From positions 1 through 64,000 of IMG/VR virus record IMGVR_UViG_2706795919_000001: 64,000 nt of DNA; one strand, 5' to 3'. The translations under genes were made by a program, and so were the position numbers. The notes beneath the pieces are model-generated. The model saw nothing but the letters and a program-made list of their open reading frames with translations. It was not told where the DNA came from and did not search any database. Of the stretch, positions 39,383-63,984 are shown one piece after another; positions within the stretch are counted from its first letter, which is position 1, and each line of letters begins with the position of its first letter. This DNA is from a virus. Its lineage: Duplodnaviria > Caudoviricetes.

Positions 39383-39465
39383 GTGGCGAAGGCAACTGTT
39401 GGTTTGTTGCACCTGCCTGTAAAGCAGGCGCTTCGGCTTCGGGGGTTCAATTCCCTCTCGCCACA
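39383..39465 (+). tRNA. tRNA-Tyr(GTA)
   Basis: GTGGCGA/TCGCCAC acceptor; CCTGC-CTGTAAA-GCAGG anticodon arm; GGGGG-TTCAATT-CCCTC T arm; long variable arm. Confidence 0.8.
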
Positions 39466-39498
39466 CGCTTTACCAGTAACCAAACCCTTAAGGATGAC

Positions 39499-40139: not shown

Positions 40140-40394
40140 TCACGTCAGTTATGAGGCACCTGTTCGCGCTCCATTACTTCCGTAAGGAGCGCGGCAGGTT
40201 GCCAACACTCAGAGAGCACTACCGAGAGGTAACAGGTAAGTGAACCTTCGCTTTAAGGTGCTCGGCTACACCATTGCGTCAGTCGAGCTTGAATTGCCGG
40301 AAGCCGCTGAGCCGGAAATCGCCCAGCCGGTCACTAAGCTCACGCAACGCCTCGTTAAGGGCGTTAGCCGCCTGTGGGTTAAGGGGATGGCTGC

Positions 40395-40631
40395 GTGAGC
40401 GGATTTGAGGGCGTCAAGAAGCGGACCGAGGAACAGGGCCGCATCGTCATCACCCTTGAGTACGACGTGTCCAAGTCGTACTGGAAGCAATACGCGGAGA
40501 GCCGCAAAGCCACTATCACTGATGCAGTCGATTGCCTACGGCTGAACGTTCAGGACTACGAGGCGGGCGAGCTTTCCCTTGAGGAATTAATCGACGGCGC
40601 TAGCGAGATAAGCGTTACCGCCACTAAGTAA
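40395..40631 (+). CDS. hypothetical protein
   Basis: 78-aa ORF upstream of Ro-like gene. Confidence 0.6.
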   Translation: MSGFEGVKKRTEEQGRIVITLEYDVSKSYWKQYAESRKATITDAVDCLRLNVQDYEAGELSLEELIDGASEISVTATK

Positions 40632-40642
40632 GAAAGACGACG

Positions 40643-42082
40643 ATGACCACATTCCTACGCAGCCTGCAAGAGCAGTTCAACCACACCACTACGGAGAACG
40701 GCGCTCTGGCCCATAAGAGCAGCTTCGATCCGGTGGTGGACTACTTCGGCCTGGCGGGCGCTATGCGTAACCGGGCTGAGGCTTCGGCTGACCTGTTTGA
40801 GACGGCGTTCCGCTCAGACGTGCAGGCCGCGATCCGGACCCTGTTCTATCTGCGTGATGTGCGCGGCGGCCAGGGGGAGCGCGATGTGTTCCGCGCTGGC
40901 CTTAAGCGGCTCGTCGGCCTTAGCCCCGTTAAGGCGGGCCGGGTGTTGCAGCATGTCCCGTTCTACGGGCGGTGGGACGATCTGCTGATTGAGGGTGTGT
41001 TCCATCACCCGGAGGTCCAGAAGATCATCCTTAACCAGTGGACGGCTGACGTTGCGGCTTACGAGCGCGGCGAGGGCGTGTCCCTGATGGCTAAGTGGCT
41101 CCCGTCCGACAAGGCGGCGAACAAGGAACTGGCTATCGCGGTCCGTAAGTCTCTGGGCCTGACGCAGCGTGAGTACCGCCAGACGCTTAGCGCGCTTAGG
41201 TCGCGGATCGGTCTGCTTGAGTCGTCCATGTCCCGGAACGAGTGGGATATCGACTACGGCAAGCTCCCGGCGCAGGCGCACCGTAAGCACGTCAAGGCTT
41301 TCCGGCGTCACTCGGAGGGCGAGTACCAGGCGTACTTGGATGCCGTCGAGCGCGGCGAAGCCAAGATCAACACGTCCACGCTGTACCCGCATGAGCTTTA
41401 CGAAATGGCGACCCACTACGGCGGCGACCGTAAGGCCGCTGACGTGATGTGGAACAACCTGCCGGATTACACGCGCGGCGCTGAGGCCATCGTCATGGCT
41501 GACGTGTCGGGGTCCATGCACCAGTCGTGGAGCCAGGGCGCTAACCCAATCGCGGTGTCCGTCTCGTTGGCGCTGTACTTCGCAGAGCGGAACCAGGGCG
41601 ACTACGCGGGCTACTTCATGACCTTTGCGTCCACTCCGGCGCTCATGAAGGTGCCTTCCGGGGACCTGAGTGCCCGTCTGAGCGCCGTGGAGAACTCTAC
41701 GGGGTGGATGGGTAGCACAGACGTTGGAAAGGCGTTTGACGCGATCCTGGCGGCTGGCGTGAAGTCGGGCACTGTCCCGGCCACTCTCTACATCATTTCG
41801 GACATGCAGTTCGACCAAGCGATTGACGACGGAAACGATACGACGTTCCAGACGGCTAAGCGGAAGTTCGCGGCTGCCGGGCTGGAACTGCCTCATGTCG
41901 TGTTCTGGAACGTGGACGCTCGGAACGATCAGCTTCCGGCGACGATCTTGGACGGCCAAGTCACCTTGGTTTCCGGCTTCTCGCCTACGACGTTCGGTAT
42001 GGCGGTAGAGGGCAAGACTCCGCGCGAGCTTGTGGACTCCGTTATCAACGGTGAGCGCTACGAGCGGATTAATCCGTTCTAA
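40643..42082 (+). CDS. DUF2828 / Ro(TROVE)-like RNA-binding protein with vWA domain
   Basis: TTENGA, FYLRDVRGGQGER, YGRWDDL, AKWLP motifs; vWA MIDAS DVSGSM, GSTD, IISDMQFD, VVFWNV. Confidence 0.85.
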   Translation: MTTFLRSLQEQFNHTTTENGALAHKSSFDPVVDYFGLAGAMRNRAEASADLFETAFRSDVQAAIRTLFYLRDVRGGQGERDVFRAGLKRLVGLSPVKAGRVLQHVPFYGRWDDLLIEGVFHHPEVQKIILNQWTADVAAYERGEGVSLMAKWLPSDKAANKELAIAVRKSLGLTQREYRQTLSALRSRIGLLESSMSRNEWDIDYGKLPAQAHRKHVKAFRRHSEGEYQAYLDAVERGEAKINTSTLYPHELYEMATHYGGDRKAADVMWNNLPDYTRGAEAIVMADVSGSMHQSWSQGANPIAVSVSLALYFAERNQGDYAGYFMTFASTPALMKVPSGDLSARLSAVENSTGWMGSTDVGKAFDAILAAGVKSGTVPATLYIISDMQFDQAIDDGNDTTFQTAKRKFAAAGLELPHVVFWNVDARNDQLPATILDGQVTLVSGFSPTTFGMAVEGKTPRELVDSVINGERYERINPF

Positions 42083-42123
42083 AAATTCCATAGCTGCGGG
42101 CTAGGCCGTAAGCTATGCGATAG

Positions 42124-42176
42124 GTGGACACAGACAGCAATTACTTTGTTTGCATACAACAGAGAAATGTGTCCAG
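42124..42176 (+). ncRNA. short Y-RNA-like unit 1
   Basis: TGGACACA/TGTGTCCA closing stem, ACAGCAA, inner hairpin CTTTGTT-TGCATAC-AACAGAG. Confidence 0.65.
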
Positions 42177-42184
42177 TAATGCTT

Positions 42185-42315
42185 GTGGACCCCCACAGCA
42201 ATTGACAACTCACAGGAAAAACCGGTGGTCGCGGGTTCGAGTCCCGCTCGCTCGGGTTGACCGGGCGATAGCTCAGTGGGTAGAGCATTGGTCGCAGTTA
42301 ACAAACGGGGTCCAG
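42185..42315 (+). ncRNA. YrlA-like Y RNA with circularly permuted tRNA domain (unit 2)
   Basis: TGGACCCC/GGGGTCCA stem, ACAGCAA; T arm GCGGG-TTCGAGT-CCCGC precedes loop-closed acceptor stem and D arm GCTC-AGTGGGTA-GAGC. Confidence 0.85.
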
Positions 42316-42326
42316 TTAAAGCGGTT

Positions 42327-42383
42327 GTGGACGGTAACAGCAACCTAAAACTTTCACTGCTAATGAAATCAAATTCCGTCCAG
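42327..42383 (+). ncRNA. short Y-RNA-like unit 3
   Basis: TGGACGG/CCGTCCA stem, ACAGCAA, inner hairpin TTTCA-CTGCTAA-TGAAA. Confidence 0.65.
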
Positions 42384-42399
42384 TCTTACCGCGCAGATC

Positions 42400-42440
42400 G
42401 CCTCCGTATTCAGCCTTAGCGGCTGACCGGGGGCTTTTTT
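42400..42440 (+). terminator. intrinsic terminator after RNA array
   Basis: GCCTCCG..CAGCC-TTAGC-GGCTG..CGGGGGC followed by TTTTTT. Confidence 0.7.
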
Positions 42441-42463
42441 GTGCCCAAACTAAGGGAGACACC

Positions 42464-42805
42464 ATGAAAAAGATCATTGGCGGCGCGCTGGTCGCTGCGG
42501 TCGCGCTGGCGCTGCCCGCTTGCGCTACGCAAAACCAGCACTGGGAGTCCAACTGCACGGTCACGTCTAAGGACATGATCTATGGCGGCGATAAGGACTC
42601 GGGCACCACGCGGACTAAGCGCCTGAGCACGTCGTGCGGCGCGTTCAACGTGGAGGACGCCTGGGAGGTTGGCGCGTTCAACTCCTACGACCTGTGGGCC
42701 AAGCTGGAAGTCGGTAAGACCTACGACCTCAAGGTTGGCGGCATCCGTAACGGCTTCATGTCCATGTTCCAGACGGTGATTGAGGTCAAGGGTCCGAATG
42801 GCTAG
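42464..42805 (+). CDS. lipoprotein
   Basis: Signal peptide with lipobox LPAC; GGGAG RBS. Confidence 0.75.
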   Translation: MKKIIGGALVAAVALALPACATQNQHWESNCTVTSKDMIYGGDKDSGTTRTKRLSTSCGAFNVEDAWEVGAFNSYDLWAKLEVGKTYDLKVGGIRNGFMSMFQTVIEVKGPNG

Positions 42806-62857: not shown

Positions 62858-62929
62858 GCCACCTTAGCTCAGGGGTAGAGCAGCGCCTTCGTAACGCGCA
62901 GGTCAACGGTTCGATTCCGTTAGGTGGCT
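62858..62929 (+). tRNA. tRNA-Thr(CGT)
   Basis: GCCACCT/AGGTGGC acceptor; loop TT-CGT-AA; TTCGATT T loop. Confidence 0.88.
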
Positions 62930-62953
62930 CTGTAAACAAACTATTGAGAGGAA

Positions 62954-63145
62954 ATGATGGACCCGGTACTAGTTGAGAAGGAACGGCGCGGCGCTGTGCA
63001 GGAGCTTCGGGACCGTAACGCTTGGCCTAAGGCTGAGCCGGTTGAACCAGAGGCAGAGGTTGAGAAGCCTAAGCGCGGTCGCCCCGCTAAGCAGGACGCG
63101 CCGGAGCCTGAGCCTGAGGGCATTGAGGTCGCGGTCAGCGAATAA
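62954..63145 (+). CDS. hypothetical protein
   Basis: GAGGA RBS; KRGRP AT-hook-like motif. Confidence 0.6.
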   Translation: MMDPVLVEKERRGAVQELRDRNAWPKAEPVEPEAEVEKPKRGRPAKQDAPEPEPEGIEVAVSE

Positions 63146-63269
63146 GGAATTACCGCGTGTCGTCCGCGTAGGGACTGCTAGCCCGGACTGGCACGCATTT
63201 TAACTGGGAGCCGTAGTCCCCCGTTCAAATTGCTAGCAGAAGCCCATACGCGTTAGGGCAACTACGCAT

Positions 63270-63343
63270 CTGGTTGTAGCGCAGCTTGGTAGCGCGCCTG
63301 ATTTGGATTCAGGGGGTCGGAGGTTCAAATCCTTCCAGCCAGA
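63270..63343 (+). tRNA. tRNA-Pro(TGG)
   Basis: CTGGTTG/CAGCCAG; CCTGA-TTTGGAT-TCAGG; TTCAAAT. Confidence 0.9.
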
Positions 63344-63344
63344 C

Positions 63345-63518
63345 ATGATTGAGCTTGATAAAGAGTCCACTTACCGTGACCGCTTAGGCCGGAAGTGGGA
63401 GTGGTCAGACCTTAATGGCTGGGTAGTTAATCGAATGGCTACCTTCGGCGGGTTCTGGCCGGATGATGAGTTTGCGCCGTTCACGGTTATTGATCCGTGT
63501 CCGACGTGCCATAGGTAA
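63345..63518 (+). CDS. hypothetical protein
   Basis: YRDRLGRKW...FAPF pattern seen in small phage proteins. Confidence 0.5.
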   Translation: MIELDKESTYRDRLGRKWEWSDLNGWVVNRMATFGGFWPDDEFAPFTVIDPCPTCHR

Positions 63519-63682
63519 GGCGCACGCTAGCCTCACGGTTAGTGGCCTTCGGTTATGTCCCTACCGACTGAAAGGGATCGTTGCAGAACTTTCGTATAAC
63601 TGTCGTCCTGCCGGGGGTTGCGTAACACTGACCTATACCCGGTCGCTGTATGGCTCCACGGTGTTATGCAAACGGGCCTCTT

Positions 63683-63756
63683 GCGCTAGCTACCCCTGTT
63701 GGCGGGGTGCCTGCCTTCCAAGCAGGATCACGCGGGTTCGATTCCTGTCTAGTGCT
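63683..63756 (+). tRNA. tRNA-Gly(TCC)
   Basis: GCGCTAG/CTAGTGC; CCTGC-CTTCCAA-GCAGG; TTCGATT. Confidence 0.85.
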
Positions 63757-63761
63757 CTCTT

Positions 63762-63834
63762 AGCTCGGTAGCTCAACTGGTAGAGCAGTGGTCTCCAAAG
63801 CCACCGGTTGCAGGTTCGACTCCTGTCCGGGTTG
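63762..63834 (+). tRNA. tRNA-Trp(CCA)
   Basis: AGCTCGG/CCGGGTT; GTGGT-CTCCAAA-GCCAC; TTCGACT. Confidence 0.9.
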
Positions 63835-63835
63835 C

Positions 63836-63909
63836 GGTTCCGTAGGCAAACTGGCAAAGCCGTCTGACTTAGAATCAGGTGTTTGGGAGTTCGACTCTCC
63901 CCGGAACTA
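63836..63909 (+). tRNA. tRNA-Leu(TAG)
   Basis: GGTTCCG/CGGAACT; TCTGA-CTTAGAA-TCAGG; short variable loop. Confidence 0.85.
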
Positions 63910-63984
63910 CGCTAAGTAGCTTAATGGTAAAGCCCCCGGTTGTGGTCCGGGCGATCACGGTTCAACTCCGTGCTTAAGCCACCA
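63910..63984 (+). tRNA. tRNA-His(GTG)
   Basis: CCCGG-TTGTGGT-CCGGG; CACGG-TTCAACT-CCGTG; encoded CCA; irregular acceptor stem. Confidence 0.8.

What the first reader, a model, noticed from the sequence alone, without database searches (positions are those of the whole stretch)
40643..42440. DUF2828/Ro-like vWA protein followed by a three-unit RNA array with a shared ACAGCAA handle and variable cargo
Seen: directly after the stop codon are three tandem units (42124-42176, 42185-42315, 42327-42383). Each reads GTGGAC-N4/5-ACAGCAA-[cargo]-GTCCAG. The closing stems covary (TGGACACA/TGTGTCCA, TGGACCCC/GGGGTCCA, TGGACGG/CCGTCCA), ACAGCAA is invariant and unpaired, and the cargo differs in each unit. 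A hairpin (42089-42117) precedes the array and a terminator (42400-42440) follows it. Known: Ro60/TROVE-vWA proteins bind Y RNAs through the stem formed by the 5' and 3' ends, and bacterial Y RNAs are encoded next to their Ro gene. Inference: this DUF2828-type protein binds a constant stem+ACAGCAA handle and is loaded with interchangeable tRNA-mimic modules processed from one transcript. That would be a modular RNP system, possibly for tRNA/RNA repair or anti-defence.
Basis: partly seen in the sequence, partly recalled or inferred. Interest (0 to 1): 0.92.

Follow-up and report, generated by a model that had tools for sequence, protein, structure and literature searches.

The report
Phage Ro60-like protein with handle-tagged RNAs
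A mycobacteriophage gene for a protein shaped like the RNA-binding ring Ro60 is followed by three small RNAs that share one conserved "handle" but carry different tRNA-like parts, and the same pairing recurs in very different phages, so it is probably an undescribed relative of the Ro60/Y-RNA particle.

Summary
Three units at 42124-42176, 42185-42315 and 42327-42383 each have a 7-8 bp closing stem, ACAGCAA and a trailing G (3 matches against 0.01 expected). A hairpin precedes them and a terminator follows.

The 479-aa protein is DUF2828 + DUF7788/vWA, not Pfam TROVE. Its AlphaFold model (pLDDT 87.9) matches Ro60 over its whole length (Z 22.8).

A covariance model of the unit found 152 of 152 hits on the gene's strand in 71 of 97 phage loci, and 105 of 105 in 59 of 80 independent genome loci. 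It found nothing in T4, T5 or Bxz1, which are tRNA-rich phages without DUF2828.

- Unit 2 carries a YrlA-type T-arm/D-arm module.
- Short units often carry anticodon-loop-like hairpins.

Rfam has no family for the handle, and none of my eight answered paper searches described it. A preprint reports that a Felixounavirus Ro60-like protein, probably an orthologue, counters the Ppl defence system.

Binding, processing and function are inferred, not shown. This scan has already found the same system on other DNA. Verdict: a new variant of the Ro60/Y-RNA kind.

The parts
40643..42082 (+). Gene for a 479-aa Ro60-like protein: an N-terminal helical-repeat part (DUF2828) and a C-terminal vWA domain (DUF7788) with D287-x-S289-x-S291, T359 and D387 invariant
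   Evidence: ORF. Pfam and PHROG phrog_850. Invariant columns of the 50-sequence alignment A1. AlphaFold model pLDDT 87.9. Foldseek top hits are all Ro60. VIA-align Z 22.8, rmsd 4.0 over 409 residues to 2i91_A.
42087..42120 (+). Hairpin between the stop codon and the array, with no U-tract. A hairpin of different sequence sits at the same place in CELFI, Rumpelstiltskin and LeBron.
   Evidence: Fold -15.9 kcal/mol, z -2.3. Relatives.
42124..42176 (+). Unit 1 (53 nt). Handle stem 42125-42132 / 42168-42175, ACAGCAA 42134-42140, inner 7-bp hairpin 42144-42164 with 7-nt loop UGCAUAC, trailing G 42176.
   Evidence: Covariance model R1 41.6 bits.
42185..42315 (+). Unit 2 (131 nt). Handle stem 42186-42193 / 42307-42314, ACAGCAA 42195-42201, small hairpin, T-arm 42231-42247, 8-bp middle stem 42248-42268, D-arm 42271-42286, trailing G 42315. 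This is a YrlA-type permuted tRNA-like module.
   Evidence: Rfam YrlA RF02553 37.7 bits, model positions 23-89 only, below the gathering score of 69. Fold. RNAalifold on 15 long units: 17 of 21 pairs have compensatory changes.
42327..42383 (+). Unit 3 (57 nt). Handle stem 42328-42334 / 42376-42382, ACAGCAA 42337-42343, 5-bp hairpin 42352-42368 with anticodon-loop-like CUGCUAA, trailing G 42383.
   Evidence: R1 44.7 bits. The same stem carries loop CUGUUAA in CELFI and in L032.
42400..42440 (+). Intrinsic-terminator-like stem-loop followed by U6, closing the array. The next gene starts at 42464.
   Evidence: Fold -23.6 kcal/mol, z -3.5. ORF list. Not found by the simple scan.

Best explanation
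The gene encodes a ring-shaped Ro60-like protein from a sequence family (DUF2828 + vWA) distinct from TROVE. The three downstream units are its Y-RNA-like partners.

Each unit is a small RNA whose 5' and 3' ends form a 7-bp stem of free sequence. The stem is followed on the 5' strand by 1-2 nt and the invariant (A)CAGCAA. It faces an A-rich 3' strand and ends in an unpaired G. I infer that this handle docks on the protein, as the GNCGAA/GGUCCGA helix of Y RNAs docks on Ro60.

The interior is a swappable module: a permuted tRNA-like elbow (unit 2), an anticodon-arm-like hairpin (units 1 and 3), or elsewhere a whole tRNA.

The array is most likely co-transcribed with the gene, ended by the terminator at 42400-42440, and cut into separate RNAs. 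I infer that the particle presents tRNA look-alike parts to tRNA-handling or tRNA-cutting enzymes during infection, either for RNA surveillance and repair or as counter-defence.

Shown: the fold similarity, the RNA family, its covariation, and its specific co-occurrence with the gene.
Inferred: binding, processing and biological role.
For: Protein
- The 10 highest-Z chains are all Ro60 (VIA-align Z 14.5-22.8, about 400 residues aligned). The next hits drop to Z 10.5 and cover the vWA domain only.
- Foldseek E 3.4e-8 to 1yvr, and it also hits the Thermus phage Ro60 structures 9kop and 9l5y.

RNA family in phage loci
- An exact-motif finder was run on 80 IMG/VR loci that encode relatives 35-70% identical. 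It found units in 52 loci: 108 on the gene strand and 2 on the other strand.
- ACAGCAA occurs 183 times on the + strand and 58% of these are stem-closed. Eleven permuted heptamers occur 24-73 times each, with 4-27% stem-closed.
- Covariance model R1 gave 194 of 195 hits on the gene strand at E<=0.1.
- At E<=0.005 all 152 hits were on the gene strand, in 71 of 97 loci. CAGC and the 3' G are present in 150 of 150 aligned hits.
- The median distance from a unit to the gene is 170 nt.

Independent set not used to build the model
- 59 of 80 genome-contig loci had hits, 105 of 105 on the gene strand. All 7 pairs show compensatory changes.

Specificity
- Five bacterial genomes or MAGs (16 Mb) gave 5 hits, all inside the DUF2828 loci.
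- T5, T4 and Bxz1 are tRNA-rich, have no DUF2828 match, and gave 0 hits. FelixO1 and Listeria LP-048 gave 3 hits each, all beside the gene.
- Bxz1 has a true TROVE + vWA_Ro60 protein. Its YrlA-like RNAs carry GGCCGAG and GGCCGAAG instead of ACAGCAA. The handle therefore changes with the protein family while the tRNA-like cargo is shared.

Cargo
- Rfam YrlA matches the long units below threshold.
- In L032 a handle encloses a 67.5-bit tRNA.
- 20 of 87 short units have CU-NNN-AA loops, against 0.29 expected.

Context
- 44 of 97 loci have tRNA genes in the flanks, and 269 of those 271 tRNAs are on the gene's strand.
- RtcB lies 1.3 kb downstream in LP-048, and an RNA ligase gene lies just upstream in the Erwinia phage.
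- A polynucleotide kinase and an RNA ligase are annotated in Snenia. Snenia is 96% identical to the window over the gene and array.

Literature
- Bas63 gp130 is Ro60-like, lies directly upstream of the tRNA genes, and counters Ppl (preprint passages).
Against: - There is no direct evidence that the protein binds these RNAs, or that discrete RNAs accumulate. I found no usable RNA run.
- Pfam TROVE is not matched.
- A profile search of PDB sequences found no Ro60.
- hhalign against Bxz1 Ro aligned only the vWA part (75.7% probability).
- 26 of 97 phage loci and 21 of 80 genome loci had no unit within about 2.5 kb at E<=0.005. Some of these phages carry units 6-200 kb from the gene, and one fragment (G001) had none.
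- In the preprint, gp130 alone restored T7 plaquing on a Ppl strain. One activity therefore does not need the RNAs.
- The pair counts on alignment A2 are partly circular, because its units were chosen for having a stem of at least 7 bp.
- Only about a quarter of short units have a canonical anticodon-like loop, and unit 1 here does not.
Confidence: 0.72

Rival explanations
1. The protein acts on its own, for example as an inhibitor of a host defence protein. The units are not its ligands. They are independent stable RNAs, such as tRNA-part decoys or regulators, that merely share an operon or tRNA island with it.
For: Bas63 gp130 expressed alone from a plasmid, or inserted into T7, countered Ppl. 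LeBron gp53 alone is toxic when overexpressed. In some phages the units lie far from the gene.
Against: Units were found only in genomes with the gene, in every control I ran. They usually lie within 300 nt of it (105 of 148). The invariant unpaired CAGCAA and the 3' G look like a protein-recognition site. The parallel with TROVE Ro60 and GNCGAA RNAs in Bxz1 is close.
Confidence: 0.14
2. The units are cis-acting processing or stability elements of phage tRNA and early operons, such as RNase entry sites, punctuation or insulators. They would have no role as free RNAs.
For: In FelixO1 and L032 the units alternate with tRNA genes at spacings of about 5-15 nt. The trailing G is invariant, as a cleavage determinant might be.
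Against: The tRNA-rich phages T4, T5 and Bxz1 have none. In this window no tRNA flanks the array. The interiors carry conserved folded modules (T and D arms, 7-nt loops) that a cleavage signal would not need.
Confidence: 0.08
3. The stretch encodes small proteins, as some GenBank records annotate, or it is a repeat left by a mobile element.
For: Samty, MsGreen and Finnry annotate a hypothetical protein under the match. ORFs of 47-76 aa overlap the array. CP81 ORF140 and BE22_0031 overlap units in their phages.
Against: Stem sequences change freely while pairing is kept. Conservation is limited to 7 unpaired bases plus one G. The orientation is always that of the gene. The RefSeq record of Snenia leaves the gap unannotated.
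Confidence: 0.02

Closest known systems
Bacterial and mycobacteriophage Ro60 (Rsr, TROVE + vWA) with YrlA/YrlB Y RNAs (Chen et al. 2014, PMC4201824, passages read; Rfam RF02553)
   Same: A ring protein with a vWA domain. Two or more small RNAs are encoded within a few hundred bases on the same strand. One RNA carries a T-arm/D-arm tRNA-like module and the others are short hairpins. The 5' and 3' ends form a stem next to a short conserved single-stranded motif.
   Different: The protein belongs to a different Pfam family, with no TROVE hit. The motif is (A)CAGCAA plus a 3' G, not GNCGAA. The stem is only 7 bp and free in sequence. Rfam YrlA scores are below threshold (37.7 against 69 bits). The Bxz1 control has the canonical type and no R1 hit.
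Thermus phage phiLo Ro60 with Yrl1 and Yrl2 (PMC12135203, passages read; PDB 9KOP, 9L5Y)
   Same: A phage-encoded Ro60-fold protein with two adjacent Y-like RNAs, proposed to act against host defence. It is a structural match to the model here (Z 14.8-16.1).
   Different: phiLo Ro60 is described as a Ro60 homologue whose RNAs carry the CGAA motif. Its RNAs lie upstream of the gene, and the paper reports a complex with host PNPase. Nothing of that kind is known here.
Bas63 (Felixounavirus) gp130, a counter of the Ppl defence system (preprint 10.1101/2024.10.10.617714, passages read)
   Same: Described as structurally similar to Ro60 and lying directly upstream of the tRNA genes. That is the arrangement of FelixO1 ORF42, which is 33.9% identical to the window protein. 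It is probably an orthologue.
   Different: I did not locate the Bas63 record, so orthology is inferred. The authors guess that some annotated tRNAs are Y RNAs. The passages I read, found by searching the text for Ro60, Y RNA, gp130, g130, ppl and Felix, do not describe the ACAGCAA units. The host and the defence system differ from mycobacteria.
Metazoan Ro60 with Y RNAs (PDB 1YVP, 2I91)
   Same: These are the best structural matches (Z 22-23). The principle is the same: a terminal stem with a conserved motif serves as the protein-binding handle, and a variable loop serves as an effector module.
   Different: 10-12% sequence identity. There is no bulged-helix GGUCCGA motif, and the RNAs are made from a phage operon rather than by RNA polymerase III.

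Membership tests
Ro60 / TROVE protein family | Pfam TROVE domain (PF05731) and Ro60-type vWA domain (PF25045) | tested here: not met
   Pfam gives DUF2828, DUF7788 and a weak VWA_2 hit, with no TROVE hit at E<=0.1. The Bxz1 gp220 control hits both TROVE and vWA_Ro60.
Ro60 / TROVE protein family | Helical-repeat ring closed by a vWA domain (the Ro60 fold) | tested here: met
   The model has pLDDT 87.9. VIA-align gives Z 22.8, rmsd 4.0 over 409 of 479 residues to 2i91_A. The top 10 hits are all Ro60. This rests on a predicted structure, not a solved one.
Ro60 / TROVE protein family | MIDAS-type metal site in the vWA domain (DxSxS...T...D; the consensus is recalled, not taken from a call) | tested here: met
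   D287, S289, S291, T359 and D387 are invariant in 50 sequences.
Ro60 / TROVE protein family | Binds Y RNA on its outer surface and RNA 3' ends in its central hole | not testable with these tools
   No tool here models RNA-protein binding. This needs EMSA, RIP-seq or cryo-EM.
Y RNA, YrlA subfamily (Rfam RF02553) | Score at or above the Rfam gathering threshold (69 bits) | tested here: not met
   Unit 2 scores 37.7 bits over model positions 23-89 only. Long units elsewhere score 34-50 bits. Units 1 and 3 give no hit.
Y RNA, YrlA subfamily (Rfam RF02553) | tRNA-like module with a T-arm, an acceptor-like stem and a D-arm | tested here: met
   Met by unit 2 only. 17 of 21 consensus pairs show compensatory changes across 15 long units.
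Y RNA, YrlA subfamily (Rfam RF02553) | GNCGAA(N0-1)G Ro60-binding motif near the 5' end (Chen et al. 2014) | tested here: not met
   ACAGCAA stands at the equivalent place. The Bxz1 RNAs carry GGCCGAG and GGCCGAAG.
Y RNA, YrlA subfamily (Rfam RF02553) | Encoded within a few kb of the Ro gene, on the same strand | tested here: met
   The array starts 42 nt after the stop codon. Across loci, 152 of 152 hits are on the gene strand and the median distance is 170 nt.
tRNA | Cloverleaf recognised by ARAGORN or the Rfam tRNA model | tested here: not met
   No tRNA is called in 42083-42445. The exception elsewhere is L032 4091-4163, which lies inside a handle.

The most novel reading that the evidence does not exclude
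DUF2828 proteins and CAGCAA-handle RNAs form a widespread, modular phage ribonucleoprotein. One ring protein is loaded with interchangeable RNAs that display separate tRNA parts: anticodon arm, elbow, or whole tRNA. These would act as decoys, sensors or repair platforms against tRNA-targeting host defences. That would be a new class of RNA-based counter-defence, present in model phages such as FelixO1, the Listeria P100-like phages and LeBron.
Probability: 0.3. Interest if true: 0.88.

Novelty: new variant of a known kind. Interest (0 to 1): 0.8.

Why it matters
Ro60/Y-RNA particles are known from animals, about 5% of bacteria and a few phages. What they do is still debated.

Here a second, sequence-distinct protein family with the same fold has its own RNA handle, and the tRNA-like cargo recurs. 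tblastn found the protein in 705 phage records, from hosts that include Escherichia, Salmonella, Listeria, Staphylococcus, Campylobacter, Vibrio, Bacillus and Mycobacterium. Several of these phages are laboratory or applied phages.

- The RNAs go unannotated or are mis-annotated as small ORFs.
- The handle gives a simple search key for finding them.
- Together with the reported anti-Ppl activity of a probable orthologue, the system offers a tractable way to ask what Y-like RNAs and tRNA mimicry do in phage-host conflict.

Tried and rejected
Protein searches
- A single-sequence AlphaFold run gave pLDDT 42.9 and was unusable. I repeated it with alignment A1.
- A profile hmmsearch of A1 against PDB sequences found no Ro60.
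- hhalign of A1 against Bxz1 gp220 aligned only the vWA part.
- PADLOC gave no hit, and NCBIfam gave only a far sub-threshold vWA hit.

Scans of the window
- The promoter scan found 0 promoter-like sites in 40300-42700, and the terminator scan missed the terminator. The start of transcription is therefore not located.

Expression
- No RNA holder is listed for the stretch.
- I laid two wastewater runs that are labelled RNA-Seq but are probably DNA. They gave three short contig pieces, covering 41919-42098, 42219-42251 and 42264-42424, which say nothing about expression.

Ideas dropped
- A pairing between AGCA of the motif and the UGCU loop of unit 3 is not kept in other units.
- I asked whether the toxic small protein LeBron gp54 overlaps the array. 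It does not: it starts 359 nt after gp53, beyond the array.
- I could not find Bas63 by name among the 60 listed rows of 260 FelixO1-like records.

Literature
- Paper searches: Y RNA/mycobacteriophage/Ro60; DUF2828; YrlA + phage; Ro-like/phage/RNA-binding protein/tRNA; TROVE/phage/tRNA-like/RNA repair; anticodon mimic/nuclease/decoy; Cluster L/RNAseq/LeBron; Ro60/phage/Y RNA from 2022.
- None of the listings or passages I read describes ACAGCAA units.
- The library lacks most subscription journals. The 2020 Annual Review (PMC10870794) was not held. Supplements were closed, so the phage list in the supplementary tables of Chen et al. 2014 was not seen.
Full report
**What is there**

The window is a Cluster L-type mycobacteriophage. 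The gene and array are 95-96% identical to Kingsolomon, Snenia, Lumos and Whirlwind, whose records call the gene "Ro-like RNA binding protein".

The ORF at 40643-42082(+) encodes 479 aa. It hits Pfam DUF2828 and DUF7788/vWA, and PHROG 850 "RNA-binding protein".

Forty-two bases after the stop codon come three units, at 42124-42176, 42185-42315 and 42327-42383. Each reads G-UGGAC..., 7-8 bp of stem, ACAGCAA, interior, the complementary strand, then G. The pattern TGGAC-N3-6-ACAGCAA occurs three times against 0.01 expected.

- Folded alone, each unit closes its terminal stem.
- Unit 1 has a 7-bp hairpin with loop UGCAUAC.
- Unit 2 has a T-arm, an 8-bp stem and a D-arm.
- Unit 3 has UUUCA-CUGCUAA-UGAAA.
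- A hairpin at 42087-42120 precedes the array. A stem-loop plus U6 at 42400-42440 follows it.
- ARAGORN calls no tRNA here.
- Rfam gives only a sub-threshold YrlA match, to the T/D part of unit 2 (37.7 bits against a gathering score of 69).
- The RefSeq record of the close relative Snenia leaves this gap unannotated.

**Conservation within Cluster L**

CELFI, Rumpelstiltskin and LeBron have proteins 66-70% identical to the window's. All three keep the same order: hairpin, three units, terminator. Their closing stems differ by compensatory changes, for example TGGACGC/GCGTCCA, TGGACTCC/GGAGTCCA and TGGTCAC/GTGACCA. The inner loops change faster than the handles: CUGCUAA here, CUGUUAA in CELFI.

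**The protein**

Folded without an alignment it gave no usable model. With 50 homologues the model reached pLDDT 87.9 and pTM 0.87.

- Foldseek's twelve matches with E<=1e-4 are all Ro60: Xenopus, human, Deinococcus Rsr and Thermus phage phiLo.
- VIA-align gives Z 22.8, rmsd 4.0 Å over 409 residues at 10% identity. All ten Ro60 entries score Z 14.5-22.8. The next hits fall to Z 10.5 and cover the vWA domain only.
- At sequence level the link is not visible. There is no TROVE hit and no Ro60 in a profile search of PDB sequences. hhalign against the TROVE protein of Bxz1 aligns only the vWA part.
- The residues D287, S289, S291, T359 and D387 are invariant. They fit a MIDAS site, a consensus I recall rather than took from a call.

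tblastn finds the protein in 705 phage records from many hosts. In the first four distant phages I opened, ACAGCAA units lay beside the gene on its strand. These were FelixO1, Listeria LP-048, Bacillus PJN02 and Enterococcus EFDG1. The units again had free stem sequences.

*Exact-motif finder.* I ran it on 80 IMG/VR loci whose proteins are 35-70% identical to the query. It required a stem of at least 7 bp, at most 3 nt of spacer, and ACAGCAA.
- It found units in 52 loci: 108 on the gene strand and 2 on the other strand.
- ACAGCAA occurs 183 times on the + strand, and 58% of these are stem-closed.
- Eleven permuted heptamers occur 24-73 times each, with 4-27% stem-closed.

*Covariance model.* R1 has 64 positions and 7 pairs, and was built from 87 short units.
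- At E<=0.1 it gave 195 hits, 194 on the gene strand.
- At E<=0.005 it gave 152 of 152 on the gene strand, in 71 of 97 loci plus the window.
- In the 150 aligned hits, CAGC and the trailing G are invariant. The third pair is G-C in about 94%. The base before the stem is C in only 1 of 150, so the trailing G stays unpaired.
- The motif varies only at its edges (ACAGCAG, ACAGCGA, UUCAGCAA).
- The pair counts on the training alignment (93.5% paired, all 7 pairs compensatory) are partly circular, because I chose units that had stems.

*Independent set.* The 80 loci from genome contigs were not used to build the model.
- 59 of 80 loci have hits, and 105 of 105 hits are on the gene strand.
- 99.9% of cells are paired and all 7 pairs have changes on both sides. 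This alignment is fitted to the model.

*Specificity.*
- In five bacterial genomes or MAGs (16 Mb) the only 5 hits lie inside the DUF2828 loci. Only 150 candidates were scored in four of the five genomes.
- T5, T4 and Bxz1 have tRNA arrays and no DUF2828 match. They gave no hit at E<=0.1.
- FelixO1 and LP-048 gave three hits each, all beside the gene.
- Where no unit lies near the gene, units lie elsewhere in the genome. This holds for Vibrio Va3, Aeromonas PX29, an Erwinia jumbo phage and one IMG/VR fragment. A second fragment had none.

**The handle follows the protein family**

Bxz1 encodes a true TROVE + vWA_Ro60 protein. Upstream lie a YrlA-like RNA and a second RNA, with long terminal stems and the motifs GGCCGAG and GGCCGAAG. 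These are the GNCGAA type that Chen et al. 2014 tie to Ro60 binding (PMC4201824, passages read). R1 finds nothing in Bxz1.

Two protein families with one fold thus each have their own handle, while the T-arm/D-arm cargo is common to both. This is my strongest indirect argument that the handle is the protein's docking site.

**Cargo**

*Long units.* Fifteen long units share handle, small hairpin, T-arm, covarying middle stem and D-arm. 17 of 21 pairs are compensatory. This is the order of a permuted tRNA, as in YrlA.

*A whole tRNA.* In L032 one handle encloses a complete tRNA (67.5 bits; ARAGORN calls it Gln-UUG).

*Short units.* Of 87 unique short units:
- 60 have a hairpin with a 7-nt loop (27 expected);
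- 28 fit YU-NNN-RN (2.9 expected, maximum 7 in 200 shuffles);
- 20 fit CU-NNN-AA (0.29 expected, maximum 2).

The central triplets are GUU, UUU, GCU, UCU, GCA and others. Unit 3 of the window fits (CU-GCU-AA). Unit 1 does not.

Another first-stage note (e1-6248695) had suggested anticodon-like loops, and the count supports that in part. That these loops mimic anticodon arms for a nuclease or a modification enzyme is a hypothesis. An alternative reading follows Chen's model and treats the hairpin as a variable arm.

**Context and function**

- Units lie upstream (76) or downstream (72) of the gene, at a median of 170 nt.
- 44 of 97 loci have tRNA genes in the flanks, and 269 of those 271 tRNAs are on the same strand.
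- In FelixO1 and L032 the units alternate with tRNAs. Cutting at tRNA ends could therefore release them (inference).
- RNA repair genes are nearby or in the same genome. RtcB is in LP-048. An RNA ligase gene lies beside the gene in the Erwinia phage. A polynucleotide kinase and an RNA ligase are annotated in Snenia (annotation names).
- LeBron gp53 is moderately toxic when overexpressed (PMC13148394, passages read).

A preprint (10.1101/2024.10.10.617714, passages read) reports on Bas63 gp130.
- It is a Ro60-like protein lying directly upstream of the tRNA genes of a Felixounavirus.
- It counters the Ppl defence system.
- It does so alone when moved into T7.
- The authors guess that some annotated tRNAs may be Y RNAs.

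The gene order matches FelixO1 ORF42, a 33.9%-identical homologue of the window protein. I did not see the Bas63 record, so orthology is inferred.

This gives the anti-defence reading some experimental footing. It also shows that at least one activity does not need the RNAs. As with Y RNAs, they may gate or retarget the protein.

**Novelty**

The Ro60-like nature of the protein is already in GenBank annotations and in the preprint. YrlA RNAs beside TROVE Ro60 in phages are published.

I found no description of the CAGCAA handle family, its short members or its link to DUF2828. Rfam 15 has no matching family. The eight paper searches did not turn it up either.

There are limits to this claim. 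The library lacks most subscription journals. The supplements of Chen et al. 2014, which list 22 phages, were closed.

This scan has found the same system before on other DNA: 93 notes in at least 83 genomes, with follow-ups that reached the same reading. I reached mine before reading them.

**Verdict**

I class it as a new variant of a known kind.

Noticed in passing
L032 4062-4185 (IMG/VR locus): A CAGCAA handle (TAGGCAC / GTGCCTA) encloses a complete, non-permuted tRNA (Rfam 67.5 bits; ARAGORN calls it Gln-UUG). It was the only such case among 148 model hits in the 97 phage loci.
   Followed up: partly
L016 2361-2498 (Campylobacter CP81 ORF140); L017 4013-4102 (Staphylococcus BE22_0031); L019 3997-4457 (Klebsiella phage small minus-strand ORFs); window 42124-42419 (gene 55 'hypothetical protein' in Samty, MsGreen and Finnry): Small hypothetical ORFs annotated in GenBank records overlap handle units. 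They are probably mis-annotated RNA genes.
   Followed up: partly
L020 and record MT939488.1 at about 300.9-306.9 kb (Erwinia phage pEa_SNUABM_50): In this jumbo phage the four model hits lie about 200 kb from the DUF2828 gene. The gene itself sits next to a putative RNA ligase gene.
   Followed up: no
L114 2420-2720 (Bxz1, upstream of gp220): There are two Y-like RNAs with long GC-rich terminal stems and GGCCGAG / GGCCGAAG motifs. Rfam YrlA scores only 32.5 bits on the first, so even a canonical phage Ro60 partner falls below the family threshold.
   Followed up: partly
window 39383-39466: A lone tRNA-Tyr(GUA) lies 1.2 kb upstream of the Ro-like gene, far from the main tRNA cluster at 62858-63980.
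   Followed up: no
Cluster L relatives (L001, L002, L196 and the window): The inner loops of units 1 and 3 differ between subclusters (UGCAUAC, UGCGGAU, AUGGUAA; CUGCUAA, CUGUUAA), while the handles and even the hairpin stems stay the same. The loops therefore evolve fast.
   Followed up: partly
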